Source: a virus
Taxonomy: Duplodnaviria; Caudoviricetes
Direction: 5' to 3' (one strand)
Length of the DNA stretch: 64,000 nucleotides
IMG/VR virus record: IMGVR_UViG_3300030106_005551
Coordinates: 6,887-70,886 of that record
Shown: positions 11,725-54,200 of the stretch, one piece after another
How positions within the stretch are numbered: position 1 is the first letter of the stretch
Layout: every line of letters begins with the position of its first letter
Translations under genes and position numbers: made by a program
The notes under the pieces: model-generated
The model's input: the letters and a program-made list of their open reading frames with translations, nothing else
Databases searched by the model: none
Told to the model about the DNA's origin: nothing

Positions 11725-14700
11725 TTAATTATATATCGTATTTAGTATTTGCTTTCTTGTCTCTGCATAAGGAGCCACTTCAGTGAGTAGTGTTTTTTTA
11801 GCAAGAGACGATCCTTTTTCTGCATAAGGACTTGTTCTTTTAACTTTTTCTCCAGATGTAGCTTGCCCAATAGCTTTTACAGCATTTTGTAGTGTACCTG
11901 TAGATGCAGGAACTATAGTATAATTTACAAACCTACGTAAGTCTGTTGTTACAAAAACATCATTAGAAAACTTTTTTAAAGTTCTTATAGTTTTTGTATC
12001 TGGCTCATCATCATCTTCCATCATTGCAATTAAGGATAATAACGTCACTCCTATTCCTAAACCAGCTACATGAGCCCTCATTCCCTTCTTTCTTTCTTCG
12101 CTAGATTTATTATATATATCTATTATATCTTTTTTTGTTAAGTTACCCGCAAAGTAATTTCTAAACAAGTCTGTAATAAATTCTGAGCTTGCCCTATAGC
12201 TACCTATATTAACCTCTCCAAATCTATCTATATCTTCTGCTTTAAATCTATCTCTTATTAAGGTAATAAACCATTTCTTAAACTGTAATAAAGCTCTACC
12301 ATAAGAATACATAGAAAGTAAGCTTGCGTCTAAAGCTGTATAACCCTCTCCATGTAATGTAGATATTTTATGATTAATATACATTACTCTTTCTTCTGTT
12401 ATTGTTTCAGGATTATTAAATTCTTTATCTGTTAGCATTCCTAAAAATGCAGCGCCTTGTATGTACCCTTCTGTTTTGTCCATAAAAATATAAGCCCATT
12501 TTTCTATTTTTCCAAAAGCTCCTTTCTTTTCAGAAAGATGAATAAATTCATCAAAACTATATTCTACTATTCTATTGTCAGATAATATTTTTTGTGATTT
12601 AGTAAAATCTTTCCAATATCTACTTTCTCCTTTTATAAATTGATTACCTCCACGCTTTCTTAATTCTTGATATTTACCAGCCAATACATTTCCTATACCT
12701 ACAGTCATGTTAAAACCAAGAAGTCTAAGTGATGTAAGTTTTACAAAGCCGTCTATAACTTTATCTCCTGTTTTTCCTAAAGCGCTTTCTTGTTCTTTTC
12801 TTTCTAGAAATCCTTCTTTCCACCATTCAGTTAAATATTTAACCGCGTTTTTATTATCTAAATTTTTATTAAATCCTATTATAGCATCTGTAAGTATTGC
12901 AACTTTATCCATTCCTGCAAAACGATCATCTCGTTCTACTATTACTCCGTCTTCCATTTTATATATTCCCTCACCATGCTTAAATATATGTCCTCTAGCA
13001 AACTCTAATAACGTAGTGTTTATATCATAAGATATGTTTTGTGATTTGACACCTTTTCTTATTTCATACTCCTGTATAAGTTCTGCGTCAACATCAGATA
13101 TATTTTTAGAGCCTATCATTCTTTTTAACATTGCACCGTTATTAACTAATGCATCATACTCCATATCAGAAAGCATTATTTTTTTACCATCTTCATGTAT
13201 ACCTTGAGACTTATATCTTTTTGCTTTTTTTCTTAACTTATCTAATTCAAATATTTCTCTTCCTGATTTTAATTTAAGCTTACCTGTTCTACCTTTATAC
13301 ACATCATATTTCCACTCATAAAATGTTTTATAGACACTATCTCCGTTAGAATCTATTCCTCGGACTCTTACCCTATAATAATCATTTGCATCAATAGAAG
13401 CGCTGTAAAGGCCAAATAAACCATTTCTTGACATACTTTCTAGGTTACCCATTTGTACTCCAGGTATTCTAGTTTCTCCATCATCTGATCCTAACAATAT
13501 TTCAGCAATAGCTTTATATCTAATGTAGTATTCTTCTTCTTGCTTTGTTAACTCTACTCCATTTTCTTCTATTTCCTCTGGAGTAAACAGCCTAACATTA
13601 CCATTTTCTACAGTAGCTATATTTCCGTATATATATTGATAACGAGCATTAGTATCAAACCCTTGTCTTATTCTTTCTAGTATGCTTATGCCTTTCATTT
13701 TTGATTTAACTAAAGCTCTATTCTTTTCTTCTATTAAGTTTTTGTGCTCTTTAAAGCTTTTCATATACTTTCTGTACTCTTTTTGAGCTTCATTAATTAA
13801 ATATTGTATTTCAGGCCTTTTAGATGTCATGTTATTAGATCCCAACCAGGTTTGAAATCCAGTTAAATCATCTTGAGCTACACCATCTACTCCAGGAGTT
13901 TTATATTCGTAGTTTTGTTTTTTTCCTTCGGTTCTTAAAAATTTAGCCTGCTCTTGAAACGCTCTTTGCCCTATTTCTTTTTCTATTGTATAAGCTATAC
14001 CTTTAGTAGCAGAGTTATCCATCTTTCTAAACTTTCTAGCTCTGTCATATAGACCTTCCATAGTATATTTACTTAAGGGCTTTTTTTCTAATGTTGCTTC
14101 AAACTCTCTAACTAATTTTAAATGACTTCTGTATTTGTTGTATTTTTCAACGAGCATTTTATAAGTTTTAGAGTCTCTTTCTATTTTACTTATATCAATA
14201 CCTTTGTCTGCATTCCATTCTGTAAAAGATAGAAGCTCTACTCCTTCTCCTAAATAATCGCTATTATAAGATGTGTCTGCTGTAATAACTTTTTTTGCCT
14301 TTCTAACAGGGGCTTCAAAACTATTATTATCTTTAGACGCCTTATCTATTTTTTTATCAAGAGTGTATTTATCTCTACCAGCCTTACGATTTTCAACATC
14401 TTTTATAGCATCATTTAATTCTGTAGAAACAGAGCCTGTTAAATAGTCAGCTTTTTTAGTTTGACTTTCTTCTATAATTCTAGACATTTCATCATTAATT
14501 CTTCCTAGGTATTCATTGTCAAAGAAAGGCGTAAATGATGTTGCTTTACCAGCGCCACCAGCTAAACCAAAACGATTAAACTCAGCTTCTATTTCAAAAA
14601 TTAAATTTTTATCTAAATCAGAAAGTTCGGCAAATGATTCTTTAATTTGTTCTATAGCTTTGTAAGAAGTAAACTCTGTTATTTCTGCTCTATTTAATAC

Positions 14701-17700
14701 AATATAATTCCCTTTGTCAGAAACTTGAATAACATTATCTAAAAAGTAATTCCCTTTTCTACGCTCTTGTAATTCTTTAAATTCCTTAATTAATACATCT
14801 TGATTTTTTCTTTCACCAAGCATACTAAACTCGCCTCTTAAATTATTTGTAATAACCTGATTAATAACTTCAGATTTTATTTCTCCTAACTTATTTAATT
14901 TACCTAAAACCATAGGAGTTGTTAATATATTTTGCATATAAGGAGTGTATCTTATATCTGTTCTAGATGCTCTTTCTAATATAGAATCAAATAAACCAGT
15001 AGCATGTTCTATAATGTTGTTAGTTTTAGTTTTTTCTGTAAAAGAATAATCTAATCCCATCTTGCCTAATAATGGGATTCTAACAAGCCCTTGAGCCTGA
15101 GCAATACCCTCTCTAATTTGTTTTAATTCTAAAGGGTTTTTTTCAATACTTTGGTGAACGGTAAATGCCTTAGATAAAGGATCTACAGCGGCTTGTTTAA
15201 ATTTATCTAAAGTGTAAAGCATTAATATAGCTTGCTTTTGTGTAGCTTTAGTATTTTTTAAACTTTTTAAATTTATATTAATAACAGGATTTTTAACAAA
15301 GTCTTTTATATTTATATTACCTAAGCCATTATCTTTAGCAAATTTTAATAATTGATTTTCGCTTATACTATCTTTTTGTATAAACATATCCATTATGTCG
15401 CTATCTTTAGATATATAGTCTTTACTACTATTTCTTTTAGACTCCATATATTTTTTAACTATAGGAGAATTAAATAAAACAGCTAAATCGTTTAGTGAAT
15501 AGCCAAGTCTTCTAAGCAGTACAAATGGAAATACACTTTGCATATCTAATCCTAGCTTGCTAGCATATTGGTGTTTAGCATTATCTAACGCTATATTAAG
15601 TATTTGGGCTACCCCATACCAATTACCCACTCCATTCTCTAAAGCAATATCGTCAAAAAATGTTTCTCTTGTTACAGCTTCGCTTTCTCCTTTAATAGTA
15701 ATAGCAAAAGGCAACTCATCTCTGCTATTTGAAAACACATTAAATGATCTTTGTAACGATGCTATCATTCCGACTAAATTTTTTGCTGGAACATTGTCCT
15801 CAAACATTTGCGCGTCACCCCATGGAGCTAATTGAGAGTCGGTTTCTTTTAAAGCTGGAACTTTAGCAATAGCGTTTTCAGCATCAGAAATAAAATCAAT
15901 ATCAGCCTGTATTTCTTTTTGTATTTCATCTTTACTTGCTAGCTCTACATATAAATCAAAAAACTCATTAGAATCTGCTCTCCATTCTTTTTTAGCAACT
16001 TCTTCTGGTGTCCATTTAAAGTTCATATGAATTGAATCTCCATCTAAATCAGCCCCCCAGTATTTACTCACCCACGCGGGTATAGTTACGTTAGACGTAG
16101 GAGAATCTCCAATTTGTTTATGAAAATCTTTTACTACAAATATAGAGCTGCTTACTTTACCGTGAGCGGGAACTCTTGTCCCAATAAATAAATCTCCTTT
16201 TTTAACTCCTTGTTTTTGTAAATATCCAGGAACTATTGCTTCAGATGCAACTACGTTTTCATCTCCTGCGTATAATCCTTTTTCATAAGATTTTAATCCC
16301 ATACCTAAGCTAGAAGATTGATAACCTATAGACCCCTTAGTATACATCTTAGTTCCTTTATGTGTAATTCGTCCTGTCGCTATAGAATTATGTACAGCAT
16401 TTAAATAAGGGTATCTAGGGTCAAGATTGTCATACGTGTTATCTACAAGAACGTCAAATACTTCAGCAGTAACAGATGATTTAAATGAATCCCTTTCTTT
16501 TAATACGGTTTCTTCACTGGCCTTATCATTCATTATAAGACTAGCATTTCTACTAGAGTTATTAGCCTCCATTACATTTTGCCTAAGCTCTAGCATTCTG
16601 TTTATAGTAGCCTGATTTTCTGGCGTTATATTGCTTAAAAGATTATAGAATAACTGAGAAGGAAAAAACCTTTCATCTGTCTGTTTATCTAGTTCTAATT
16701 GTATGCCTAAACCTTCTCCCGACAATCCTTGATACTTACTATCACCTCCATAGATTTCGTCTTGTTTAGTTAGTATGTCAGACATATTATAGTCTTCGCC
16801 TATATCATGTATAAAGTTATCTCCTCCCGAGTAAAGTTTAGCGGCTGATTCAGATGCGGCTATGATTAAACCACCCTTAGATGTTAAATCAATTTCTGCT
16901 TTTCTTGCCCTAAGAATATCTCCTATATTTTTAAAATAAAGGCTTTGTACTTCTAGCTCTGGAGTTAATGTATGTACAGCAAATTTCATATATGTAGTTC
17001 TGCCTTTTTGTGGCCCTTCTAATTGAGTATAATGATATACAAACTTAAATACATTACCTACCTTTTGAGCCTCACCATATTTAGCTCTAATAAATTCTGC
17101 TTGTTCAGGCAATACATATCCCATTGCATCATTCTCAATAGCAGTATCAACATTGTCTTCTGTTCCTATATTACCCTCTTTATCTACATAGTAATCTTTA
17201 GTGACAACAAATTCTACAGAGGTGTTTCTGTCAAAGACTACGTGACTAGCGATAGCTCCAGCGGCACGTTTAATATAATCTACCTGATCTTTAGATTGCC
17301 TATGGTCGTGTATAAATAACTGTTGAGCCATAAACTTGTTGGCTATATATGAAGTTAAAAAAGATTCAATAGCCCCATCTTGTAATACTCCCTTTTTTAT
17401 AGCCTCATTATTTTTAAACAACTCTTTGTTAGTATTTGCATACTCACGCCACTGTTTAATCAGCCTAGGCATTTCTTTTATCTTATTATTTTCAATAGTA
17501 TAAGGAAATACACGATCGCCATTTTTATATTTAGCATTATAAGCAGGATTATTTTTAACTCTAGATAGCAATGCTTTTCTACTTTTAGTATCGTGAGCGG
17601 CTATACTTTCTATATAATATCTCCTGCTTTTATCAGAAAATACTGCAATAGGTTGATCATATTTAATTGTTTCTTGTTTATTCTTAACTCCTTGATTGTA

Positions 17701-20700
17701 TCTGTTTAAAAACATAAAAAAGTCGCCAGCTATTAATTCATTAGGATTTACATCATTTAATTTTTTAGATCTTGATTGTTTATTTTTTAACCCTACAGCA
17801 TTATTAATAATACGTCTCATCATTCCTGAATGAACTGTAAAGTGAAATGTTTTTACACCTCTATCGTTTTTATTAAGCAATGCTAGTTGACTATAAATAT
17901 TATTATCAGGATGCATTATATCATTCTTATCAATAATTATTCCATCATTAATAATCTTTTCTACATTTTTAGCCCTATTGTGTAATCCATTTTCTTTATT
18001 AAATACACTAACTCCGTCCCCCTCTACATTATCTACCATTGATAAATAATTAATAGCTCTTGAGGCGACAAGCCCTTGTAAAAGTATAGTTCTTAATTCT
18101 GATTGTTTACCATGAATAAGTCCTTCTACAGGAAAGTTTACATAATCAGAAAACCCTTCTTTTTTATTTTTATACTTCATAAAAGATTCATACTTCATTT
18201 TTGGGCCAAACTTTGTTTTAGTATGCTCAAATAGTATGTTCCATAAAAACTGCCTTTCTCCTTTAAAAAGTATTGGTGTTTGTAATAATGCGTCTTTATT
18301 AATTAAACTACCCTTTGCGTTATCATCTAACAAAATATCTAAAACTTTATAAGCGGCATTATATCTATCGCTTCTATTTCTAGGATTTCTTTCAAAAAAT
18401 AATTCATTATATATAGCTGCAATTTGATTTGCTTTATCTTTATTTCCTTTAACGTCTTTAATAACGCTATCAATTACTCCTTGCTCTATTGTTGCGCTAG
18501 TACTTTCATATCTGTTCCAAAATCTTTTACCTTCATTTCCAATAGTTAAAACATTATGCGCCAGAACCTCTATGGTAATACCCTCAATAGGACCCTTAAT
18601 TTCCATTAGCTTAGCATTAGTAAGAGCCTTATCATTTTTATATACTCTATCTAATACGCTTAGCATTGCCATTATATTAGGGTTTTCAGAGCCCCTGAGC
18701 ATATTAATAAAATCATACGGATCATTTTGTGTGTCTTTTGCTAAAGACATAAGAGTAGCCAATAATTCTTTTGTTTTTATTTGATCGTCCTCTCTATAGT
18801 TATGCACTTCTACAATCTTTTTAATAAAATTAGTTGTAGTGGTTGGTAGCGCAATAGCTTTTGTTAAATCATCATATTTATCTACCTCATTAGTCATACC
18901 TTCAGACTCTCCAATTACATCATCAGTAGATTTTAAACTAATACCAATTTTGGCTAATTCGCCATCTAATATAATGTCTGCTTTTTTAAGATCTCCTGGT
19001 CGTTTTAACTGCGTTACAATAGCTGTAATATAATCTTTAGTATCTTTTATTAATTCATCTTTAATGTCTAAATTAGAATCATTAGCTATGGCCTCCATTA
19101 CTTTATCTGCTATTTGTTCAGGAGTTAAATTACGACCTATAAAATCTCCTATATAAGACGACACAGCAGCATATGAAGTAGGCTTTTGTAGCATTTTTTT
19201 ATTAGCCTTGTTAATAGGGCCATATCCAGAGTTCATCATATATGGCACGGTTCTATCAGCAGAATTAAAGTTAAGTAGTACAGTTTTAATTGCTGCTTCT
19301 AAATCTAATCCAGCTATATTTTCTACACTAAGATCTAATAATTTTCTAGCCTCTTCATCAGTGGCTAGCTTTTTACTTTCTTTATAAAACTCTATTAAAT
19401 CTTTTTCTAATTGTTTCTGAGCGGCAGAGCCTTTTACAACAGCGTCTACTGTTCCATAAGAATACGCTTCTAATGTTCTTGTAAATGTTTCTTCAAGTAA
19501 ATGCTTTTGTTGGTCTACCCTAACATCTTTGGCTCCATTAATTTTTAGTTGCGTTCTAAGAGATAAAAATAGTTCATTTATTCTAGTGCTGTCTCCTACT
19601 TTTTCAGCAGCAGCTATATTAGATGCAATGTCAATTAAATCACTTGTATACCTTGTCGTGTCAGTATTATTAATTATATTTCTATATATAGAGCCTAAAG
19701 TAGCCTTAACTCCTTTATAACTCATTAAAGTAAGCTCTGGGTAGTCTTGTTTAGTTTTTTGATATAATTCTGATTTAGGTAAAAGCTTTCTAATTTTTTT
19801 CATTAATGGTGTGTCTTCCATTAAACCATAATAGATATGTCCAGCTTCGTGTATTATATCTGATTGTGCTACTGAATCTATATTAATAAATACAGTAGAC
19901 CCTATAGCTAAAGATGAGGCTTCTTCACCATAATCAGTTAATAACTTTTCATAAGCTAAAACTCCTTTTGCACCAGGAAACTTTTTATTGACTATATCTT
20001 TAACTATAGATGTAGCTATAACACCAGAGCCGTATTTATATAAAGGTCTTATGTCTAATACTGTAGGCTCGTAATTAGGTATTTCTTTTTGGCTTTTTGT
20101 AAGAAACTTTTTAATTTTTTCTTTAGATTCTTTTACTGCTCCTATTAGCCTGTCTATTTTACGAGTATCTTTTTTCTTGGCTTTTTTTACAGGATCTTTG
20201 GCTTTAAAATCTCGTTGAGCTACCTTGCCTACTACTTCACCATTTATAACAACTTCTATTTCAGTTTCATATAAAAGGTTATCAAACTGAAAGTACAGCT
20301 TGCCATCCACCTCAACAACACCCTCTTGACCTTTAACTGGTTTTTTAAGACGTAATTCAACATTAGCATCTTCATCTAATACATACTTATCAGAAGTATT
20401 ATCAAAATCTCTGTACTGAATAGTTTCTCCCTCTGGAGTTTTAATAAAGTAATTAGGCCCCTTGCCTTTTTGTATGTCAGCTTTTTTTATCTGACGAGGA
20501 CCTTTTTCTAAGCTTTCTTCTGTAGTTTTATATTCCTTAGTTTTAGGAACTATTTGAGGTTGGTCTTTTTTTTTTACGTCTTCATCAGACTTTTTTTGTT
20601 TTCTTATAGCGCTTTCAATGTCTTTATTATTTATAGTTCCACCTCTGCCGCTACCTTTTATTTTTGTTGCCTCTTCTATAGATATAATACCATCTTCTAT

Positions 20701-22995
20701 AGCTTTTTTTAATTTTGTTTTTGCTCCTGAAGTAATATTAAGTTTATCTATATCTTCTATAGTTTTTTCTTCTGTTTTTGGCTTTCTAACTCTATTTACT
20801 AATCCTTTTACTCCTTCAACAGCCCTGCCCCCTAAATCTTTTACAGTTTCTAATGCTTTTGTTCCCGCTTCTTTTACTTGATCTACAAGAGGAGTCTTTT
20901 CTTCAGCTTTAGCATCTGCTTCAGCTTTTTCTCTCTCAATTTTTTGCTTTTCTCCTTCTTGTGTAAAAGCTTCAAATTCGTCTTTTGTTAATCCTTCTTT
21001 TTTAAATCTAGCATCTCTTTTTCCAGTAGATTTAGCTATAGGGGCTTGATCTACTTTAGCAGTATATATATCTTCAATAGACTGTTCTACACTTGCTAAA
21101 TCGTTATTTAAAGCTTCTATTGTAGCATCATGTCTTTCTTTTAATGCTTGTAATTTTGCTTCTAATTTTTTCTTATCTTTAATAACAGATTTTTGATGTT
21201 CCACCGTTTCATTATAGCTTGCTTTTTCATCAGCTATTTCGCCTTCCTTACGAGTTTTAACCATTTCTAAGTTAAACGCTTTTTCAGCACCTGCCTCAGT
21301 AAGAGAACTATTTACATGATGTTTTGCATAATCTCTTTCTGCTAATTCAATTCTTGCTTTATATTCTAATCCCTGCTCTTCAGACAGCTTATTATCTTTA
21401 ACTAAATTGTCTACAATAGACATAGCGGCAGATCCATCTCCTGAATAATTCCAAATATTAGACGCTATTAAATTATCTATTGCTTGCTCAAATATAATAG
21501 CTTGTTCTGCGCTCATATTGCCTTCATTGTTAGAAAGCATATCTATTACATTATTATAAGCGTCTATCTTTTTATCTGTAAGATGTTTTCTTTCAGCAGC
21601 AGCATCAAAATACCCTCTTGCTCCACCCATAGCTCCTCCTAATCCTACAGAAGACCAAAATATATCTCTTAGTCCAGAATCTTTTCCAAATGGAGCTTCT
21701 TTTAACCATGAGGTCCAAGACTCATAACCCTTATTGTTTGCTTGCTGTATATTTTTGTATTTAGCCCATTCCTGATAAACCTCTTGAAACCCTTCTGTTA
21801 ATCCTTCTACTCCAGCATAAACTCCTGCTGCTGGTAAATTTGGCACTACACTTCTCATCAACATTCCAGTAAGACCCTTCATATTTTTTGCAAATGGTGC
21901 TTTTGCTATAGGGCTTCTTAACACCTTGCCCATTAAGCCTCTACCAGCACCTCCAAATAAAATTCCATATTGAAGTATATCTACACCCATCCATATAGCG
22001 TTATCTGCCATAACTCCTGCCGCGTGACTTGCTGCTTCTTCTGGTGTAAACATAGGATTACCATTAGCATCTACATCATTAGCCATTTCTTGATACGCTT
22101 CTCCAGCCAAAAAAGCTCCTTCAAATAAATTGGCTGTTGCACCACCACCAATATATCCACTTATATTTCTTGCAAGTTTAGTAGGCTTTATTCCAGCCTT
22201 TCCTAAATCAACACCTAATTTACCTAAAGCTCCAGTGCCTTTTACTCCTTTAAACCCTTTTTCTCCAGCACCTGTTAATTTTACCCCTTTAGCCATTTTA
22301 CCAAACATTCCTGATTTAGAGGCATATTTTAATGCTGTTGGACCAAGTCTACCAAGTAGTCTTCCTGCTAGTATAGAACCACCAGCATATGGCATTATAA
22401 ACGATGCGGCATAAGGAACAAGCCTTGATATTTTTGAACTCCAAAACTCTCCTTTAAACATATCATCCCAAGTAATATCTTGCAAATCTTCAGATAATAC
22501 TAAAGCATTTTCTTTTTGATATTCTGTTCCTACTTTTTTTAAGTACGATCCTACGCTTGTAGTTAAATCGCCCTCTCCTGGAGTAAGTAACGCTGACAAA
22601 TAATCTATAGTGTCTCCTGTTCCTGAAACTAAATCACCCCAACCAGCTTTTAATCCTCTAGCAACTCTTTCTCCAGTAGAACCTATCATTGCATTAGGAT
22701 CTGTTATTTGTTGCTGTGGAGCAGGACCATATCTTTCAGCGTCTAGCCCAGAATATAATGTATTGCCCATTTCACCAGCGGCAACCCCTTGCGCGTATTG
22801 ATCTAGAGCAATATCATTAATAGTATTTGTTTGAATAGAATTTTCTATAAGGCCACTTAATCCAGTTGGACCTTGCTGCATATCTCCTTCATACAAGTTT
22901 TGTATATCTTGTTCTGGTGATTGCGGTGTTAGTGAGGGTGGTGTAGCCCTGCCTAATATTTCATTAAGACCTGAAGTATAATCGTTGTCTGCCAT
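11725..22995 (-). CDS. Giant virion protein containing crAss-like double-psi beta-barrel RNA polymerase, 3756 aa
   Basis: GTRVPAHG (R2274, P2276) followed by WGADLDGD (D2316/D2318/D2320, nt 16036-16050); HEAGH at residues 1049-1053; Gly-rich hydrophobic N-terminus; located after the tail/ejection genes as in crAss-like phages. Confidence 0.85.
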   Translation of the reverse strand: MADNDYTSGLNEILGRATPPSLTPQSPEQDIQNLYEGDMQQGPTGLSGLIENSIQTNTINDIALDQYAQGVAAGEMGNTLYSGLDAERYGPAPQQQITDPNAMIGSTGERVARGLKAGWGDLVSGTGDTIDYLSALLTPGEGDLTTSVGSYLKKVGTEYQKENALVLSEDLQDITWDDMFKGEFWSSKISRLVPYAASFIMPYAGGSILAGRLLGRLGPTALKYASKSGMFGKMAKGVKLTGAGEKGFKGVKGTGALGKLGVDLGKAGIKPTKLARNISGYIGGGATANLFEGAFLAGEAYQEMANDVDANGNPMFTPEEAASHAAGVMADNAIWMGVDILQYGILFGGAGRGLMGKVLRSPIAKAPFAKNMKGLTGMLMRSVVPNLPAAGVYAGVEGLTEGFQEVYQEWAKYKNIQQANNKGYESWTSWLKEAPFGKDSGLRDIFWSSVGLGGAMGGARGYFDAAAERKHLTDKKIDAYNNVIDMLSNNEGNMSAEQAIIFEQAIDNLIASNIWNYSGDGSAAMSIVDNLVKDNKLSEEQGLEYKARIELAERDYAKHHVNSSLTEAGAEKAFNLEMVKTRKEGEIADEKASYNETVEHQKSVIKDKKKLEAKLQALKERHDATIEALNNDLASVEQSIEDIYTAKVDQAPIAKSTGKRDARFKKEGLTKDEFEAFTQEGEKQKIEREKAEADAKAEEKTPLVDQVKEAGTKALETVKDLGGRAVEGVKGLVNRVRKPKTEEKTIEDIDKLNITSGAKTKLKKAIEDGIISIEEATKIKGSGRGGTINNKDIESAIRKQKKSDEDVKKKDQPQIVPKTKEYKTTEESLEKGPRQIKKADIQKGKGPNYFIKTPEGETIQYRDFDNTSDKYVLDEDANVELRLKKPVKGQEGVVEVDGKLYFQFDNLLYETEIEVVINGEVVGKVAQRDFKAKDPVKKAKKKDTRKIDRLIGAVKESKEKIKKFLTKSQKEIPNYEPTVLDIRPLYKYGSGVIATSIVKDIVNKKFPGAKGVLAYEKLLTDYGEEASSLAIGSTVFINIDSVAQSDIIHEAGHIYYGLMEDTPLMKKIRKLLPKSELYQKTKQDYPELTLMSYKGVKATLGSIYRNIINNTDTTRYTSDLIDIASNIAAAEKVGDSTRINELFLSLRTQLKINGAKDVRVDQQKHLLEETFTRTLEAYSYGTVDAVVKGSAAQKQLEKDLIEFYKESKKLATDEEARKLLDLSVENIAGLDLEAAIKTVLLNFNSADRTVPYMMNSGYGPINKANKKMLQKPTSYAAVSSYIGDFIGRNLTPEQIADKVMEAIANDSNLDIKDELIKDTKDYITAIVTQLKRPGDLKKADIILDGELAKIGISLKSTDDVIGESEGMTNEVDKYDDLTKAIALPTTTTNFIKKIVEVHNYREDDQIKTKELLATLMSLAKDTQNDPYDFINMLRGSENPNIMAMLSVLDRVYKNDKALTNAKLMEIKGPIEGITIEVLAHNVLTIGNEGKRFWNRYESTSATIEQGVIDSVIKDVKGNKDKANQIAAIYNELFFERNPRNRSDRYNAAYKVLDILLDDNAKGSLINKDALLQTPILFKGERQFLWNILFEHTKTKFGPKMKYESFMKYKNKKEGFSDYVNFPVEGLIHGKQSELRTILLQGLVASRAINYLSMVDNVEGDGVSVFNKENGLHNRAKNVEKIINDGIIIDKNDIMHPDNNIYSQLALLNKNDRGVKTFHFTVHSGMMRRIINNAVGLKNKQSRSKKLNDVNPNELIAGDFFMFLNRYNQGVKNKQETIKYDQPIAVFSDKSRRYYIESIAAHDTKSRKALLSRVKNNPAYNAKYKNGDRVFPYTIENNKIKEMPRLIKQWREYANTNKELFKNNEAIKKGVLQDGAIESFLTSYIANKFMAQQLFIHDHRQSKDQVDYIKRAAGAIASHVVFDRNTSVEFVVTKDYYVDKEGNIGTEDNVDTAIENDAMGYVLPEQAEFIRAKYGEAQKVGNVFKFVYHYTQLEGPQKGRTTYMKFAVHTLTPELEVQSLYFKNIGDILRARKAEIDLTSKGGLIIAASESAAKLYSGGDNFIHDIGEDYNMSDILTKQDEIYGGDSKYQGLSGEGLGIQLELDKQTDERFFPSQLFYNLLSNITPENQATINRMLELRQNVMEANNSSRNASLIMNDKASEETVLKERDSFKSSVTAEVFDVLVDNTYDNLDPRYPYLNAVHNSIATGRITHKGTKMYTKGSIGYQSSSLGMGLKSYEKGLYAGDENVVASEAIVPGYLQKQGVKKGDLFIGTRVPAHGKVSSSIFVVKDFHKQIGDSPTSNVTIPAWVSKYWGADLDGDSIHMNFKWTPEEVAKKEWRADSNEFFDLYVELASKDEIQKEIQADIDFISDAENAIAKVPALKETDSQLAPWGDAQMFEDNVPAKNLVGMIASLQRSFNVFSNSRDELPFAITIKGESEAVTRETFFDDIALENGVGNWYGVAQILNIALDNAKHQYASKLGLDMQSVFPFVLLRRLGYSLNDLAVLFNSPIVKKYMESKRNSSKDYISKDSDIMDMFIQKDSISENQLLKFAKDNGLGNINIKDFVKNPVININLKSLKNTKATQKQAILMLYTLDKFKQAAVDPLSKAFTVHQSIEKNPLELKQIREGIAQAQGLVRIPLLGKMGLDYSFTEKTKTNNIIEHATGLFDSILERASRTDIRYTPYMQNILTTPMVLGKLNKLGEIKSEVINQVITNNLRGEFSMLGERKNQDVLIKEFKELQERRKGNYFLDNVIQVSDKGNYIVLNRAEITEFTSYKAIEQIKESFAELSDLDKNLIFEIEAEFNRFGLAGGAGKATSFTPFFDNEYLGRINDEMSRIIEESQTKKADYLTGSVSTELNDAIKDVENRKAGRDKYTLDKKIDKASKDNNSFEAPVRKAKKVITADTSYNSDYLGEGVELLSFTEWNADKGIDISKIERDSKTYKMLVEKYNKYRSHLKLVREFEATLEKKPLSKYTMEGLYDRARKFRKMDNSATKGIAYTIEKEIGQRAFQEQAKFLRTEGKKQNYEYKTPGVDGVAQDDLTGFQTWLGSNNMTSKRPEIQYLINEAQKEYRKYMKSFKEHKNLIEEKNRALVKSKMKGISILERIRQGFDTNARYQYIYGNIATVENGNVRLFTPEEIEENGVELTKQEEEYYIRYKAIAEILLGSDDGETRIPGVQMGNLESMSRNGLFGLYSASIDANDYYRVRVRGIDSNGDSVYKTFYEWKYDVYKGRTGKLKLKSGREIFELDKLRKKAKRYKSQGIHEDGKKIMLSDMEYDALVNNGAMLKRMIGSKNISDVDAELIQEYEIRKGVKSQNISYDINTTLLEFARGHIFKHGEGIYKMEDGVIVERDDRFAGMDKVAILTDAIIGFNKNLDNKNAVKYLTEWWKEGFLERKEQESALGKTGDKVIDGFVKLTSLRLLGFNMTVGIGNVLAGKYQELRKRGGNQFIKGESRYWKDFTKSQKILSDNRIVEYSFDEFIHLSEKKGAFGKIEKWAYIFMDKTEGYIQGAAFLGMLTDKEFNNPETITEERVMYINHKISTLHGEGYTALDASLLSMYSYGRALLQFKKWFITLIRDRFKAEDIDRFGEVNIGSYRASSEFITDLFRNYFAGNLTKKDIIDIYNKSSEERKKGMRAHVAGLGIGVTLLSLIAMMEDDDEPDTKTIRTLKKFSNDVFVTTDLRRFVNYTIVPASTGTLQNAVKAIGQATSGEKVKRTSPYAEKGSSLAKKTLLTEVAPYAETRKQILNTIYN

Positions 22996-49875: not shown

Positions 49876-51254
49876 TAGAACCTGCCGCCATTAAGATAGT
49901 TTTTTGGGTTACGCTTTCTATGATCGTATCCTTTTTCTTTCATATCAAGATGGTCTTGTAATTTGTTAGCCTTATATGCTTTTCCTGTTTTTGGGTCATA
50001 CATCATATGTGGTTTAAACGCACCCCCTTTTGCCATTGACATTGCTCCTTTATTCATTGCGTTAGAAACTAAGCCGCTTAACTGGTTCATTGCTATAGCT
50101 TGGTTTGCTTGTTGAGTGTAATAACCACCATGATTATAATCTGGCATTTTCATTCCGTGTTTAGCATAATCTAATTCCTCCTCTACATTAGGAGTTACAA
50201 ATGGATTTTCTTTTTCCCCCACCCAGTCTCCTTCTAGCAATCCTGCTGGATCTGAAGATTTTTTAATATTAGAAAGTACATCCGCTTTCCTTACATTTAA
50301 TCCAGACATTACAGGTTCAGCTGCTTTCTGTATAGGATCTCTTTTTACTGTCTGCAAATTATCTTGTGGCATATTGAAATTGTAAGAATCTCTAGAAGGG
50401 AATAATACAGGTCTAACATACTCATTTAACAAATCTATTGCTCCAAACCCTAAAGATTTAGTTGCGTCTAACGCTCCCTCTATAAGTCCTCCAGCTAAAT
50501 TTAAACCTGCACCCATAATAGGCTCAGTTACATTTCTAACCCCTCTTAAAATAGGTGTTGCTACATCCATTGCTAAATCCATTCCAGGCTCTAATACAGG
50601 TTTTATAACTTTATTTGCCTCTTTCATTGCAGTAGTTGCCACCTTTCCAGTGCCCTCAACTAAACCTCTTGAGCCGCTAGCTATTGTTTTTACCGCTGGA
50701 GTGAGAGCTTTGTCGCCAACAGTTCTAACAACATTTGTACTTGCCTGAGCTAATGGGTCAACCACATTACCAGCTACATCAAACACTGGATTTAATACAG
50801 TATTAAGGGGTTGTGTAACAGCTTTAACGGCACTAGTAACAGGTTTAAAAACGGATCTAAGAAATCCACCAAGTCCATATTCAGGAACATCATACATACC
50901 TCCCTTATTAAAACTAGTAACATTTTCTCCCATATACGGATTTAGTGCAATAAGCGGATTTGCATCCATATTACCTTCCACTTGTGCAGATCCACCACCT
51001 CCACCTGGGCCTTTCATACCTCTCGCTTGCTCAATAGAGGTTGCTGATATTCTATTTAAATTGCCAAACAAAGAAGCTAAGTTGCCCTGTCTAGACATTC
51101 CTCTTAAATTAGGCGCATCATCTACTGGTATATCACGATTAACTCGGTTTGCAATATTAAAAGATCTATCTATTGCTGCCAAACCTAAAGGTGCATTTGA
51201 CATAGGAGCTTCTGCTGGAGGTAAATCTGTTGTAAAGTTCGGGAAGAATGCCAT
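49875..51254 (-). CDS. Putative cargo protein with amphipathic repeats and YxxGG motifs
   Basis: Pro-punctuated 11/7-residue repeats; six [YFM]xxG[GM] motifs; FKPHMMYDPKTGK module near the C-terminus. Confidence 0.7.
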   Translation of the reverse strand: MAFFPNFTTDLPPAEAPMSNAPLGLAAIDRSFNIANRVNRDIPVDDAPNLRGMSRQGNLASLFGNLNRISATSIEQARGMKGPGGGGGSAQVEGNMDANPLIALNPYMGENVTSFNKGGMYDVPEYGLGGFLRSVFKPVTSAVKAVTQPLNTVLNPVFDVAGNVVDPLAQASTNVVRTVGDKALTPAVKTIASGSRGLVEGTGKVATTAMKEANKVIKPVLEPGMDLAMDVATPILRGVRNVTEPIMGAGLNLAGGLIEGALDATKSLGFGAIDLLNEYVRPVLFPSRDSYNFNMPQDNLQTVKRDPIQKAAEPVMSGLNVRKADVLSNIKKSSDPAGLLEGDWVGEKENPFVTPNVEEELDYAKHGMKMPDYNHGGYYTQQANQAIAMNQLSGLVSNAMNKGAMSMAKGGAFKPHMMYDPKTGKAYKANKLQDHLDMKEKGYDHRKRNPKNYLNGGRF

Positions 51255-51270
51255 AGTATATTATTTTTTA

Positions 51271-51278
51271 CAAAGATA
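51271..51278 (-). promoter_or_regulatory. Bacteroidota -7 promoter box TATCTTTG at the start of the late region
   Basis: 16 nt upstream of the ATG at 51254. Confidence 0.7.
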
Positions 51279-51389
51279 TAAAAAAAATTTTTTATTTTTC
51301 TGAGGGAGGGATACTATATGCTTAAACCCCCCGTTGCATTTCAAAACTTTGGATACCCTACCCTATTTTTTAGATTCTCAATTCTTTTA

Positions 51390-51404
51390 CAACTTAATTA
51401 TAGA
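51390..51404 (+). promoter_or_regulatory. Early-region motif copy 1 (CAACTTAATTATAGA)
   Basis: 14/15 identical to copies 2 and 3; precedes the first plus-strand ORF. Confidence 0.55.
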
Positions 51405-51434
51405 CAATATAATTATTAATTTAAATTACTTATT

Positions 51435-51590
51435 ATGGACTATATACTATGGTTATTCTTACTATTCATTGGAATGTTTGCTAAATGCTTGGGTGCTTTG
51501 TTAGCATTTGGTGTAGCTTATTACATTTACAAAACCTATGCAGATAAACTAATTGATAAGGCAGATAAAATAATAAAGGGAGACAAATAG
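51435..51590 (+). CDS. Small membrane protein, 51 aa, first early gene (not in track)
   Basis: MDYILWLFLLFIGMFAKCLGALLAFGVAYYIYKTYADKLIDKADKIIKGDK; followed by a terminator. Confidence 0.7.
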   Translation: MDYILWLFLLFIGMFAKCLGALLAFGVAYYIYKTYADKLIDKADKIIKGDK

Positions 51591-51603
51591 TCTCTCTTTT
51601 TTT
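51578..51603 (+). terminator. Intrinsic terminator
   Basis: GGGAGAC-AAATA-GTCTCTC followed by T7. Confidence 0.75.
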
Positions 51604-51906
51604 CAATTTAGTATAAAATATGCGTATTGAAGTGTCAGTGTGATATAATCTATAACCCTTAATAATCACCCTTATAATAGCTATAATAACAGTATAATTA
51701 CTCTAAGTTATTGATAATCAATCAGTTATTGTTTATTTATCATTTATTACTAATGTATAATATATGTTCTAATATATTTAGATGATTAATAATAATAACT
51801 AACTAATGAGTTGGCGAAGTTATACATTTTATTTGACATTGTCAAGCGTTTAGCAGTTTTTTTATTCAACTATAATTGCTTATAATATTTAGCTGACTAA
51901 TTTTTT

Positions 51907-51921
51907 CAACTTAATAATAGA
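51907..51921 (+). promoter_or_regulatory. Early-region motif copy 2 (CAACTTAATAATAGA)
   Basis: 51901-51921 is identical over 21 nt to 52402-52422. Confidence 0.6.
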
Positions 51922-51925
51922 TAAC

Positions 51926-52005
51926 AAGAATAGAGTACAAGAGTGTGCGCGCTCTCCTCGTGGAAAGGTATATACATCATAGGTTTACCCTCTGTTCTTT
52001 TTTTT
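51926..52005 (+). ncRNA. Candidate small structured RNA
   Basis: AAGAATAGAG/CTCTGTTCTT end stem, inner AGAGTG/CGCTCT hairpin, T-tract; no ORF. Confidence 0.45.
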
Positions 52006-52027
52006 ATTAACTTAAATCAAAACTATT

Positions 52028-52288
52028 ATGAAAACTATAGGAATCAATTGCTCTTGTGGCAATACAGAAGGCTTTCAGCTTTCAAGTACAGCAGCTGAAT
52101 GCACAAGCTGTACAACATTACATACAATTACAGATGAGCCTGTGTTCATCACTCGTAACATTACACCTTTACACGTAATAGAACAACGTGCTAAAGAGCA
52201 AGCAGTAATAGATATGTGGCTAGATGATCAGCCATTTATTGACTGGTCTACTTGCTTTGATATAAATAACATAAGAGTGGCAGTTTAG
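52028..52288 (+). CDS. Small Zn-ribbon-like protein
   Basis: CSCG...CTSC. Confidence 0.65.
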   Translation: MKTIGINCSCGNTEGFQLSSTAAECTSCTTLHTITDEPVFITRNITPLHVIEQRAKEQAVIDMWLDDQPFIDWSTCFDINNIRVAV

Positions 52289-52299
52289 TCACTCTTTTT
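52273..52299 (+). terminator. Intrinsic terminator
   Basis: AAGAGTGGC-AGTTTA-GTCACTCTT followed by TTT. Confidence 0.7.
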
Positions 52300-52301
52300 A
52301 T

Positions 52302-52309
52302 TATCTTTG
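52302..52309 (+). promoter_or_regulatory. Bacteroidota -7 promoter box TATCTTTG
   Basis: Directly after a terminator and before a non-coding hairpin unit. Confidence 0.6.
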
Positions 52310-52317
52310 CAAACTTT

Positions 52318-52407
52318 TATAGAATGTTCCTCAGTGCTAATCTATATTGTCGTTAATTCTCTATTTAGCATTCTATACATAACGGGGCTTAGCACAGCCC
52401 CTTTTTT
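52318..52407 (+). ncRNA. Candidate ~90-nt sRNA with its own terminator
   Basis: TATAGAAT/ATTCTATA and GCTAA/TTAGC stems; GGGGCT/AGCCCC plus T6 terminator at 52384-52407. Confidence 0.45.
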
Positions 52408-52422
52408 CAACTTAATAATAGA
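52408..52422 (+). promoter_or_regulatory. Early-region motif copy 3 (CAACTTAATAATAGA)
   Basis: Identical to copy 2. Confidence 0.6.
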
Positions 52423-52605
52423 ATAGCGAACGTAGTATTGCAAGCTATCCTCTTTTCAGTAGTGGTGAAAGATCCAAACTCTAGATATTGCCCGTAAAGC
52501 ATATTGATAATGAGGCTTTAAACCATAGGGCTGATTAACTCGCATGAAATTGCCTATGAAATAACGCGGAGTACTCAATAGAGAGAGGTATACTATTCTT
52601 TTTTT
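52421..52605 (+). ncRNA. Candidate ~180-nt structured RNA
   Basis: End pairing, inner hairpins, a possible T-loop and H-type pseudoknot, T7 end; no ORF. Confidence 0.5.
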
Positions 52606-52619
52606 AACTTAAAAATAAC
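52605..52619 (+). promoter_or_regulatory. Early-region motif copy 4 (TAACTTAAAAATAAC)
   Basis: Degenerate copy before the ATG at 52650. Confidence 0.4.
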
Positions 52620-52649
52620 TAATCTAATATTAATCAAAACAATTAAATC

Positions 52650-53018
52650 ATGTCAGAAAACAAAAACACATTAGCAAAAGGTATGTTCGTTAGAGAGCAT
52701 ACATTTGATTCAGGAACTAAAATTCTTAATGTATCTATCAATGTAGCAGATTTTTGCTCATTCGTTAAAGATAATATGAATACAGATTCTAATGGTAATC
52801 AATGGGTTAACCTAAAATTAATCCCTAACAAAAATGTAGGAGACAATAAACTATCTCATACGCCTATTCTTAATGATTACACTCCTAAAAATGCAGACAG
52901 AGCTTTAGATGCATTAGCAGAAGTGCTTAAGCCTAGCGTTGAGGAGAGAGAAATAATAGAAACTCCTACAAAGAAAACTAGAAAGAAAGCAACTAAAAAG
53001 GCTGATCTGCCATTCTAA
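52650..53018 (+). CDS. Early SSB-like protein with C-terminal DLPF
   Basis: Beta-rich OB-like N-terminus, flexible tail ending KADLPF. Confidence 0.55.
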   Translation: MSENKNTLAKGMFVREHTFDSGTKILNVSINVADFCSFVKDNMNTDSNGNQWVNLKLIPNKNVGDNKLSHTPILNDYTPKNADRALDALAEVLKPSVEEREIIETPTKKTRKKATKKADLPF

Positions 53019-53248
53019 TGAGCATTCTAGGAATAGCATTCTTCGCTGCCATAGGTTATTATATCATAGTATATAAAGCCTTGGGCAGACGGAGACTAGT
53101 AAAAACTCAGACATTCTGGGATATATTATTTACATTATTACTACCATTATTATTTATTGGTACATTTAGTGGTCTAGCCACTGCTGTTATTGCAGGAGTA
53201 TTATTCTCTATCTTTACGGCAATGACTCCGTCACCTGACGAGCCATAA
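53018..53248 (+). CDS. Small multi-TM membrane protein
   Basis: Three hydrophobic segments. Confidence 0.7.
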   Translation: MSILGIAFFAAIGYYIIVYKALGRRRLVKTQTFWDILFTLLLPLLFIGTFSGLATAVIAGVLFSIFTAMTPSPDEP

Positions 53249-53252
53249 AAAT

Positions 53253-53277
53253 AAAGAGCCCTAGTGGCTCTTTTTTT
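53253..53277 (+). terminator. Intrinsic terminator
   Basis: GAGCC-CTAGT-GGCTC followed by T7. Confidence 0.75.
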
Positions 53278-53292
53278 CTACTTATTTATAAC
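53278..53292 (+). promoter_or_regulatory. Early-region motif copy 5 (CTACTTATTTATAAC)
   Basis: Immediately after the terminator, before the ATG at 53311. Confidence 0.5.
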
Positions 53293-53310
53293 TAATCAAA
53301 TACTTTTACT

Positions 53311-53694
53311 ATGAAAAAAGAAATCTATGAAATCTCATCACAATATATGAAAGATTTAAAAAAATTATTGAAAAACAAAAAAATATCACAGTATGATATA
53401 GCCCATCAGTCATTTAGAAAAAACAATGCTGATTGGATTATTAAACATGTGAATAAAGCAAAGCTTACAATTACATATCTTAATGGAGACGTAAGAGTAC
53501 TCCCTACATATAATGAGCTTATGCGTAGAGTTAGCTGGAGTAATAACGATTACAAATCAGCTAGACGTAGATTTATTAAAAGATATTATAGAATAGTTAA
53601 TGCTTTTACTAAACATAAAAATAGATTTAAAAGAAATACGATAGCCAACAAACTTAATCCACAACAGATTAAACAGTTAGCTTCGCAAATATAA
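53311..53694 (+). CDS. Basic hypothetical protein
   Basis: ORF track. Confidence 0.65.
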   Translation: MKKEIYEISSQYMKDLKKLLKNKKISQYDIAHQSFRKNNADWIIKHVNKAKLTITYLNGDVRVLPTYNELMRRVSWSNNDYKSARRRFIKRYYRIVNAFTKHKNRFKRNTIANKLNPQQIKQLASQI

Positions 53695-53932
53695 TGATAA
53701 GGTTATTAATGTAATATACCCTGGACCCTTATCATAGAGTCAGGTCGGGCAACTATTTGTAGAATTAATAAAATTCATAATTAAAGTGTTCTAATTGCAG
53801 ATAAACTTTAAACATAGCAAGTTGGCGTAAAACGTTCCTGACTCTAAACATAAGAAAGGAGGTTAGTAATTTAATTTTAATAACTCAGCGGTTATACTTT
53901 GTGTGTTGATTACAACTCCTCCTTTCTTTTTA
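53694..53932 (+). ncRNA. Candidate ~240-nt three-domain structured RNA
   Basis: Three perfect 9-11 bp long-range helices with nested hairpins in an ORF-free gap. Confidence 0.55.
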
Positions 53933-53951
53933 TTAATTAAAAACTAAAACA

Positions 53952-54200
53952 ATGAAAGCAAAAAAAATAGGAAAAAACCTTACAAAATCATATAGTGAAT
54001 GGAAAGAATATGTTAGCGATAGTTTAAAACAATCTAAACTTAAAAAAGAAGTTCCTAAAACTATAAATAAATTAAAAGATACTCTAAGTAAATTTGATGA
54101 CAAATTCTTAGGTAAATACAATTATTTTCTTGATGTAAAATATTTAAGAAAAAAAACAGAAGAAATATATAATCGTAGTAAAAGTCTTATAAATAAATAA
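53952..54200 (+). CDS. Lys-rich hypothetical protein
   Basis: ORF track. Confidence 0.6.
   Translation: MKAKKIGKNLTKSYSEWKEYVSDSLKQSKLKKEVPKTINKLKDTLSKFDDKFLGKYNYFLDVKYLRKKTEEIYNRSKSLINK

What the first reader, a model, noticed from the sequence alone, without database searches (positions are those of the whole stretch)
52421..52605. Candidate ~180-nt RNA with closed ends, T-loop and H-type pseudoknot
Seen: GAATAG/CTATTC (52421-26/52593-98) and TATCCTCT/AGAGGTATA (52446-53/52584-92) close the molecule. Inside are AGTGG-TGAAA-GAT-CCAAACT (T-loop-like), AAAGC/GCTTT, CATAGG/CCTATG (52524-29/52553-58), and loop ACTCGC pairing with GCGGAGT (52566-72) across an A-rich linker. Inference: a tertiary-folded RNA expressed immediately after entry. 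Its size and end-pairing recall 6S RNA (an RNAP decoy), but it could be a ribozyme, aptamer or anti-defence RNA.
Basis: partly seen in the sequence, partly recalled or inferred. Interest (0 to 1): 0.72.

Follow-up and report, generated by a model that had tools for sequence, protein, structure and literature searches.

The report
New structured RNA family in marine phages
The 180-base gene-free stretch belongs to a previously undescribed family of folded RNA elements that marine phages carry as an optional, swappable cassette at the start of their early genes; what the RNA does is unknown and it has not yet been shown to be made.

Summary
Taken alone the sequence folds no better than shuffles (z +1.2) and matches no Rfam family. 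Relatives change the picture.

- **Conservation:** the unit recurs at 94-98% identity in five other marine contigs, where the adjacent gene is only 73-87% identical.
- **Family:** it is the largest member of a family of about 13 distinct sequences, found in two unrelated phage groups: crAss-like phages and DNA-polymerase-A phages.
- **Scaffold:** a closing helix AAGAAUAG/CUAUUCUU, then UGAA, a hairpin usually with a UGCA loop, and a second helix enclosing a variable payload.
- **Covariation:** the hairpin and second helix covary (8 pairs changed on both sides against 3.8 in shuffles, 0/500). A covariance model recovers held-out members.
- **Setting here:** an ORF-less cassette between two copies of a phage-specific promoter-like motif, ending in U7. 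Three near-complete relatives lack it.

The closed ends are supported. The T-loop, the H-type pseudoknot and the 6S analogy are not. Expression is untested. My best reading is an accessory, stable early non-coding RNA with a conserved scaffold and an exchangeable payload. The scan had not found this family on other DNA.

The parts
52384..52407 (+). Terminator-like hairpin GGGGCU-UAGCAC-AGCCCC plus T6. It ends the preceding ORF-less unit, and the T-run runs into the promoter-like motif.
   Evidence: conserved in L004, L006 and L059
52402..52422 (+). Copy 3 of the early-region motif TTTTTTCAACTTAATAATAGA, the presumed phage-specific promoter for the unit. Its last bases overlap the first bases of helix P1.
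   Evidence: four copies in the whole 70.9-kb record, all on the + strand at window 51386-52616. The same motif lies 33-57 nt before the start codon of the 122-aa gene in most relatives.
52420..52599 (+). The RNA element itself (here called 'u2'), an expanded ~180-nt member of the AAGAAUAG-clamp family.
   Evidence: (90.6 bits)
52420..52426 (+). P1 5' strand AGAAUAG. It pairs with 52593-52599.
   Evidence: sequence conserved in every family member
52428..52430 (+). Junction GAA of the conserved (U/C)GAA.
   Evidence: invariant G10 A11 A12
52432..52448 (+). P1a hairpin GUAGU-AUUGCAA-GCUAU. The loop holds the family's UGCA.
   Evidence: 5 of 6 pairs change on both sides across the family
52449..52453 (+). 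P2 5' strand CCUCU. It pairs with AGAGG at 52584-52588.
   Evidence: C-G/U-A exchanges
52456..52460 (+). P2b 5' strand UCAGU. By homology it pairs with GCUGA at 52530-52534.
   Evidence: inferred from family alignment; constrained fold -29.0 vs MFE -32.8 kcal/mol
52461..52480 (+).
   Evidence: pair 47/59 of A2 is G-C, G.U or A-U
52496..52519 (+). P3 hairpin AAAGC-loop-GCUUU, followed by the conserved AAA(C) junction.
   Evidence: invariant here; covaries across the family, 0/265 derangements
52530..52539 (+). P2b 3' strand GCUGA plus the conserved UUAAC.
52540..52583 (+). Variable 3' payload of unresolved fold. GCGGAG (52566-71) can pair with ACUCGC (52538-43) or with UGCCCGU (52489-95).
52584..52592 (+). 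P2 3' strand AGAGG plus the conserved UAUA linker.
52593..52605 (+). P1 3' strand CUAUUCU and the U7 run. The U-run is terminator-like and is also the T-run of the next motif.
52599..52619 (+). Copy 4 of the motif (TTTTTTTAACTTAAAAATAAC), the presumed promoter of the 122-aa gene.
52650..53018 (+). Downstream early gene of 122 aa, ending in DLPF. It served as the anchor for collecting relatives.
51926..52003 (+). Second, minimal family member in the same genome ('u1'): P1 AAGAAUAGAG/CUCUGUUCUU with a U.G pair, and P1a AGAGUG-UGCG-CGCUCU.
   Evidence: 23.5 bits; E 0.016 in the genome

Best explanation
Window 52420-52605 (+) encodes an expanded member of an undescribed family of structured RNA elements found in marine phages.

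Shown:
1. The family shares a scaffold: a closing helix P1 of nearly fixed sequence (AAGAAUAG/CUAUUCUU), a UGAA junction, a 5-6 bp hairpin P1a usually capped by UGCA, and a helix P2 that encloses a payload.
2. In one class the payload holds further conserved parts: P2b CAGY/GCUG, a covarying hairpin P3, and the UAAAA and UUAAC junctions. In other members the payload is unrelated.
3. P1a, P2 and P3 keep their pairing through compensatory changes.
4. The element is optional. It is exchanged between diverged genomes and always lies in the direction of the neighbouring genes.

Inferred:
1. In this crAss-like phage it is a self-contained early cassette, transcribed from the phage-specific motif 52402-52422, probably by the polymerase that serves the early genes.
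2. The transcript starts at or just before P1. It ends where P1 is followed by U7, giving a ~180-nt RNA whose paired ends protect it.
3. The conserved scaffold is a handle for stability or for a conserved protein partner. [quoted passage not shown]
For: **Homologues.** They are 94-98% identical over the unit, against 73-87% for the adjacent gene. In L103, L106 and L115 the neighbouring protein is only 46-56% identical.

**Family members in other contexts.** L005, L113, L085, L096 and L072; L128-L133 in DNA-polymerase-A phages that lack the CAACTTAA motif.

**Scaffold pair counts on A4.** 94.3% of cells are paired. Eight pairs change on both sides against 3.8+-1.1 in shuffles (0/500), and slid controls give 0-3.

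**Independent prediction.** RNAalifold on five members, without the window, predicts the same three helices with 6 compensatory pairs.

**Matched versus mismatched arms.** P1a: 5.6 vs 1.2 bp, 0/1854 derangements reach the observed value; chance of such a hairpin is 1-9% per sequence. P3: 0/265 derangements.

**Covariance model.** Model R1 recovers members it was not trained on: L096 at E 9e-5, L072 at 0.026, L129 at 0.036 and window u1 at 0.09.

**Strand.** G.U pairs in P1, P1a and the u1 closing helix fit the + strand only.

**Cassette nature.** The motif flanks the unit on both sides. Relatives carry no unit, this unit or an unrelated ORF-less unit at the same site. Contigs of run X9 lose homology exactly at 52420 and 52598. 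Three relatives that are 98-100% complete have no copy.

**Precedent.** Abundant early non-coding RNAs come from intergenic regions of the crAss-like Cellulophaga phage phi14:2 (10.1101/2020.03.07.982082), and six putative ncRNAs are reported in phi38:1 (PMC5335546).
Against: - There is no expression evidence for the unit.
- The window sequence folds no better than shuffles.
- Within its closest homologues covariation is not significant, so the interior fold of this long member is unresolved. Forcing the family-based pairings (P2b/P3) costs 3.8 kcal/mol against the MFE.
- In the DNA-polymerase-A phages P1 is followed by only four U and there is no recognisable promoter. The element therefore need not be a separate transcript everywhere.
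- In some crAss-like relatives other ORF-less units run straight into the 5' UTR of the 122-aa gene.
- P1 is AU-rich and long-range, and the terminator scan did not call it.
- The trans-acting role is pure inference.
Confidence: 0.55

Rival explanations
1. A cis-acting RNA element, not a free small RNA. It would be a structured leader, 3' end or insulator of the neighbouring mRNAs, for instance a stabilising 5' or 3' clamp or a leaky terminator that tunes read-through into the 122-aa gene.
For: In L128-L133 only U4 follows P1 and no promoter motif precedes it, and the unit lies between co-directional genes. The cassettes in L039/L103 and L080 lack a T-run and continue into the 5' UTR of the 122-aa gene. 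Every cassette in this region, with or without an ORF, ends in a hairpin plus T-run.
Against: Here the downstream gene has its own motif copy, and that arrangement is conserved in relatives with no unit at all. The element sits beside different genes in different phages. A conserved multi-helix core is more than a terminator needs.
Confidence: 0.25
2. A DNA-level selfish or recombination element, such as a MITE-like insertion or a recombination site folded as single-stranded DNA. The inverted termini AAGAATAG/CTATTCTT would be the functional part.
For: The terminal inverted repeat is nearly invariant in sequence across unrelated contexts. Distribution is patchy and identity is higher than in the flanks. 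The unit is flanked by direct repeats of the motif.
Against: - The flanking repeats differ at 4 of 21 positions while the unit is 94-98% conserved. In the other phage group they are absent, so they are not target-site duplications.
- Internal helices covary and use G.U pairs, which fits one strand only.
- Orientation always follows transcription.
- Other ORF-less cassettes have closing helices of quite different sequence, which does not fit a single recombinase.
- There are only two copies per genome.
Confidence: 0.1
3. A 6S-like RNA polymerase decoy, a self-cleaving ribozyme or a tRNA-like RNA.
For: The size is ~180 nt, the ends are paired and the position is early.
Against: No Rfam family matches at gathering score or at E<=10 over the unit, nor in compact members. 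ARAGORN finds nothing. The fold is a multi-branched junction without a long helix and central bubble.
Confidence: 0.04
4. No function: a remnant of a lost gene or filler between two promoters.
For: MFE is no better than shuffles. The unit is dispensable in complete relatives.
Against: It is better conserved than the neighbouring coding sequence. It has a recognisable scaffold in two phage groups, with compensatory changes.
Confidence: 0.03

Closest known systems
Early non-coding RNAs of the crAss-like Cellulophaga phage phi14:2 (intergenic regions g004-g005 and g005-g006; Drobysheva et al., bioRxiv 10.1101/2020.03.07.982082)
   Same: A marine crAss-like phage. ORF-less stretches at the start of the rightward early region are transcribed from the earliest time point at high level. 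Function is unknown.
   Different: No sequence or scaffold similarity was seen. Those regions are long (about 1.7 kb), and one of them contains a tmRNA gene by ARAGORN. No common early promoter motif was found in phi14:2, whereas this clade has a clear one.
PeSL promoter-terminator cassettes of T4-like phages (PMC2839356, PMC4122927)
   Same: A repeated composite of terminator hairpin or T-run plus early promoter bounds small variable cassettes. Relatives differ by insertion, loss and replacement exactly at these repeats.
   Different: PeSL cassettes carry ORFs. Here several cassettes are ORF-less structured RNAs. The motif sequence and the phage group differ. Recombination at the motif is inferred, not shown.
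Y RNAs / bacterial and phage YrlA (scaffold plus module RNAs)
   Same: The 5' and 3' ends pair into a conserved stem that could be a protein handle, while the rest of the RNA varies.
   Different: There is no Rfam match and no tRNA-like module. No Ro/Rsr gene was seen nearby. The resemblance is architectural only and rests on my own knowledge.
6S RNA
   Same: Length near 180 nt and paired ends.
   Different: No central bubble flanked by long helices and no Rfam hit. The fold is a three-way junction scaffold.

Membership tests
AAGAAUAG-clamp RNA family (defined here) | Closing helix P1 AAGAAUAG/CUAUUCUU followed by U residues | tested here: met
   52420-26/52593-99 plus U7. Present in all members.
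AAGAAUAG-clamp RNA family (defined here) | (U/C)GAA junction, then a 5-6 bp hairpin P1a with UGCA in the loop | tested here: met
   CGAA, then GUAGU-AUUGCAA-GCUAU at 52427-48
AAGAAUAG-clamp RNA family (defined here) | P2 helix starting directly after P1a and closing before a UAUA (or ..GACUAG) linker | tested here: met
   CCUCU/AGAGG plus UAUA
AAGAAUAG-clamp RNA family (defined here) | Significant match to covariance model R1 | tested here: met
   90.6 bits, E 3e-15. The window was in the training set; held-out members also match.
6S RNA | Match to the Rfam 6S models; long irregular helix with a central open-promoter-like bubble | tested here: not met
   No hit at gathering score or at E<=10. 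The predicted folds are multi-branched.
tRNA-like / T-loop RNA | T-arm with T-loop consensus; detection by ARAGORN | tested here: not met
   ARAGORN finds 0 genes in the window. The loop UGAAAGAU lacks the UUCRA-type consensus (sequence).
Known self-cleaving ribozymes and riboswitches | Match to any Rfam 15 covariance model | tested here: not met
Intrinsic (rho-independent) terminator | Stable stem directly followed by a U-run | tested here: inconclusive
   P1 plus U7 has the form, but the stem is AU-rich and closes a 165-nt multiloop. The scan did not list it. In the other phage group only U4 follows.
PeSL-like promoter-terminator cassette | Repeated terminator+promoter composites that bound segments gained, lost or replaced between relatives | tested here: met
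MITE-like transposable element | Terminal inverted repeats plus target-site duplication, many copies, no strand preference | tested here: not met
   Terminal inverted repeats are present, but there is no consistent duplication, only two copies per genome and a fixed orientation.

The most novel reading that the evidence does not exclude
The conserved clamp (P1 of fixed sequence, UGAA and the UGCA-capped hairpin) is the docking site for a specific protein. The exchangeable payloads are functional 'warheads'. On this reading, marine phages carry a modular RNA platform, delivered in the first moments of infection, whose payloads neutralise different host defences or host RNAs. A more remote variant: the paired-end RNAs are substrates or templates of the phage's own virion polymerase.
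Probability: 0.15. Interest if true: 0.85.

Novelty: new variant of a known kind. Interest (0 to 1): 0.62.

Why it matters
Phage-encoded structured RNAs are few and mostly orphan.

- **A new family:** this one is absent from Rfam 15, has covariation support, and has a conserved scaffold with variable payload domains. It occurs in two unrelated groups of uncultured marine phages.
- **Accessory and early:** in the crAss-like clade it is one of several ORF-less, paired-end cassettes bounded by a clear early-region motif. This gives a concrete set of candidates for RNA-based host takeover or counter-defence in Bacteroidota phages.
- **A candidate early promoter:** no early promoter consensus is known for crAss-like phages, so the motif itself is a lead.
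- **Testable:** the compact ~105-125-nt members are suitable for probing, pull-downs and structure work.

Tried and rejected
- **Rfam:** nothing on the unit at gathering score over the window. Nothing at E<=10 over 51250-54000, apart from a chance minus-strand SraG row at E 1. Nothing on relatives.
- **ARAGORN:** no tRNA or tmRNA in the window.
- **MFE z-scores:** no signal for the window. Other members range from -0.5 to -4.8.
- **Phage database:** blastn and tblastn against 50,697 phage records found no relative of the region or of the 122-aa gene.
- **Sequencing runs:** only one RNA run held any part of the stretch, and its contig covers 52665-52897, the 122-aa gene. The unit itself has no cover. 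Contigs cannot show absence, so this is no evidence either way.
- **Search for a host mimic or target:** an 18-mer from the invariant core gave three hits in 596 Gb of prokaryote genomes, with no flanking similarity. These are chance matches.
- **Pattern hits L134-L137:** they lack P1a and P2 and lie in what look like coding regions, so they are chance matches.
- **Shared payload word:** no word is common to all cassette families.
- **Link to SSB-like genes:** rejected. In the DNA-polymerase-A phages the protein with the DLPF-type tail lies elsewhere.
- **AlphaFold2 model of the 122-aa protein:** pLDDT 55, unusable. Pfam and PHROGs found nothing for the early proteins or the 3756-aa ORF.
- **N4-like reading of the genome:** my early reading was dropped. 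The portal is crAss-like at about 30% identity, and a relative with terminal repeats has this region mid-genome.

Full report
**1. The observation**

The window is bases 6887-70886 of a 70.9-kb IMG/VR virus record. The minus strand carries a long run of large genes, including 3756-aa and 2245-aa ORFs and a portal about 30% identical to crAss-like portals. From about 51435 the plus strand carries small early-type genes.

The stretch 52421-52605 has no conserved ORF.

On its own the sequence is unremarkable.
- The + strand MFE is -31.9 kcal/mol with z +1.19 against dinucleotide shuffles. The - strand gives z +0.58.
- Rfam gives nothing at gathering score or at E<=10.
- ARAGORN gives nothing.

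**2. The setting**

A 21-nt motif, TTTTTTCAACTTAAYAATAR, occurs four times in the whole record. All copies are on the + strand, within 1.2 kb (window 51386-52616). One copy abuts the 5' end of the unit (52402-22) and one its 3' end (52599-619).

I collected relatives through the downstream 122-aa gene: 15 viral and 60 marine metagenome loci. In most of them the same motif lies 33-57 nt before that gene's start codon. This makes it a good candidate for the early promoter, but that is inferred.

Between the preceding terminator and this motif, relatives show one of three states:
- nothing (L006, L007, L008, L010);
- this unit;
- an unrelated ORF-less unit of 80-180 nt.

Cassettes that carry ORFs end in local GC-rich hairpins. 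The ORF-less ones mostly end in a helix between their first and last bases, followed by the T-run. Over 11 cassette families the matched 5'/3' arms pair far better than mismatched ones: the summed duplex energy is -119.6 kcal/mol, and no derangement reaches it.

Contigs of DNA run X9 lose similarity to the window exactly at 52420 and 52598. This repeated terminator/T-run plus promoter boundary, with gain, loss and replacement, resembles the PeSL cassettes of T4-like phages (PMC4122927, PMC2839356).

**3. Homologues of the unit**

Full-length copies lie in L103, L063 and L106, and partial copies in L075 and L115. They are 94-98% identical to the window over the unit, while the adjacent gene is 73-87% identical at the DNA level. 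In L103, L106 and L115 the neighbouring protein is only 46-56% identical. The unit also sits behind different upstream elements in these loci. It is therefore an exchanged module under stronger constraint than its neighbours.

There are about 20 variable columns.
- Those that fall in proposed helices are all pair-compatible. They include one G-C / G.U / A-U pair in the hairpin at 52461-80.
- With so little divergence the counts do not exceed shuffles (284/500).

**4. A wider family**

Searching for the end sequences found further members with different interiors in the same clade: L005, L113, L085, L096, L072 and the window's own 51926-52003.

Pattern scans of IMG/VR then found L128-L133. These lie in phages with a family-A DNA polymerase and a helicase, have no CAACTTAA motif, and are co-directional with the genes.

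All members share the following, in order:
1. P1, AAGAAUAG(UG)/(UA)CUAUUCUU;
2. UGAA;
3. a hairpin P1a of 5-6 bp whose sequence differs in nearly every member, with a loop that is usually UGCA;
4. directly after it, the 5' strand of P2 (CCUCU, CCCUCU, CCAC, CCAU or CCC);
5. the P2 partner (AGAGG, AGAGGG, GUGG, AUGG or GGG), lying just before a UAUA or ..GACUAG linker and the 3' strand of P1.

Tests of the scaffold:
- On alignment A4 (10 sequences), 94.3% of cells pair. Eight pairs change on both sides against 3.8+-1.1 in shuffles (0/500). Slid controls give 0-3.
- RNAalifold on five compact members, without the window, predicts the same three helices with six compensatory pairs.
- Matched P1a arms give 5.6 bp against 1.2 for mismatched arms (0/1854 derangements). 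The chance of such a hairpin at that place is 1-9% per sequence.
- Covariance model R1 recovers members it was not trained on: L096 at E 9e-5, L072 at 0.026, L129 at 0.036, window u1 at 0.09 and L085 at 0.8, in 405 kb.
- G.U pairs in P1, P1a and the closing helix of u1 fit the + strand only.

In the class with the UAUA linker, which includes the window, the payload is also conserved in outline:
- P2b, CAGY/GCUG;
- a covarying hairpin P3 (0/265 derangements);
- a UAAAA junction;
- UUAAC after P2b.

Mapped onto the window, these give P2b at 52456-60/52530-34 and P3 at 52496-500/52515-19. The 52461-95 segment is then a subfamily-specific insertion. This family-based fold costs 3.8 kcal/mol more than the MFE. 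The interior of this long member is therefore not settled.

**5. Distribution**

The record has two copies, 52420-52599 and the minimal 51926-52003. One partial relative has one copy. Three relatives that are 98-100% complete have none. The element is accessory.

**6. What it most likely is and does**

Shown: a conserved, plus-strand, RNA-type structured element with a fixed scaffold and a variable payload. It is optional and exchanged between genomes.

Inferred:
- It is transcribed from the motif at 52402-22 at the onset of infection.
- The transcript ends at P1+U7, giving a ~180-nt RNA with protected, paired ends.
- It acts in trans on the host as a decoy or regulator.

The nearly invariant sequence of P1, UGAA and the UGCA loop, next to freely covarying helices, suggests a protein handle.

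Points against a free small RNA:
- only U4 follows P1 in the polymerase-A phages;
- some other cassettes run into the downstream 5' UTR;
- no RNA data cover the unit. The single metatranscriptome contig covers only the 122-aa gene.

The main rival is a cis-acting role as a leader, a 3' clamp or a leaky terminator.

A DNA-level mobile element is less likely for three reasons. The internal helices covary with G.U pairs, orientation always follows transcription, and the flanking repeats are not target duplications.

The 6S, tRNA-like and ribozyme readings find no support.

**7. Comparison with what is known**

The closest biological precedent is the pair of abundant early non-coding RNAs of the crAss-like phage phi14:2, whose function is also unknown (10.1101/2020.03.07.982082). 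They show no similarity to this family, and one of those regions holds a tmRNA gene. Six putative ncRNAs were also reported for Cellulophaga phage phi38:1 (PMC5335546).

The family is not in Rfam 15. I class it as a new family within a known kind, phage-encoded structured non-coding RNA.

**8. Verdict**

The closed ends and the RNA nature hold up. The T-loop, the pseudoknot and the 6S analogy do not. Interest is moderate to high, because the evidence points to a new, modular RNA family in abundant uncultured marine phages. It is limited by the lack of expression data and by the unknown function.

Noticed in passing
window 52302-52407: A separate ORF-less unit just upstream, conserved in L004, L006, L007, L010 and L029. 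It has a Bacteroidota-type -7 box (TATCTTTG), a closing helix AUAGAAUG/CAUUCUAU that becomes UAGAGU/ACUCUA in L007 and L010 (a compensatory change), a conserved core GUGCUA...AUUGUCGUA, and then a GC-rich terminator.
   Followed up: partly
window 51386-52616, and about 40 of 58 non-redundant relatives: The motif T-run + CAACTTAAYAATAR occurs four times in the genome, all on the + strand at the start of the early genes. It is conserved 33-57 nt before the 122-aa gene's start codon in relatives. It is a candidate early promoter for a crAss-like clade, for which no early consensus is known.
   Followed up: partly
L004/L029/L112 (about 85 nt), L008 (about 91 nt), L039/L103 (about 140 nt), L086 (130 nt), L066 (two units), L022 (126 nt): At least six further ORF-less cassette families, unrelated in sequence, occupy the same promoter-bounded sites in relatives. 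Each is closed by its own 7-11 bp terminal helix, for example AAGAUAUAAC/GGUUAUAUCUU and AAUAACAGGU/ACCUGUUAUU.
   Followed up: partly
window 52650-53018: The 122-aa early protein ends in DLPF, like the C-terminal tip of bacterial SSB. It has no Pfam or PHROG match, and the AlphaFold2 model was of too low confidence to use.
   Followed up: partly
L119 (Cellulophaga phage phi14:2, NC_021806) 4031-4500: ARAGORN calls a tmRNA gene (tag GSSVQKLAMVA) inside the intergenic region that the phi14:2 paper reports as a highly expressed early 'long non-coding RNA'.
   Followed up: partly
window 11725-22995 (-): The 3756-aa ORF has no PHROG or Pfam match at the thresholds used, so its reading as a virion RNA polymerase rests on motifs only.
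   Followed up: no
L128, L131, L132 and L133, directly 3' of the unit: In the DNA-polymerase-A phages the unit is followed by AACAUAAACAAGG and an 8-bp hairpin (UUGGUGAU...AUCACCAA) before the next gene. This may be part of the same RNA or its real terminator.
   Followed up: no
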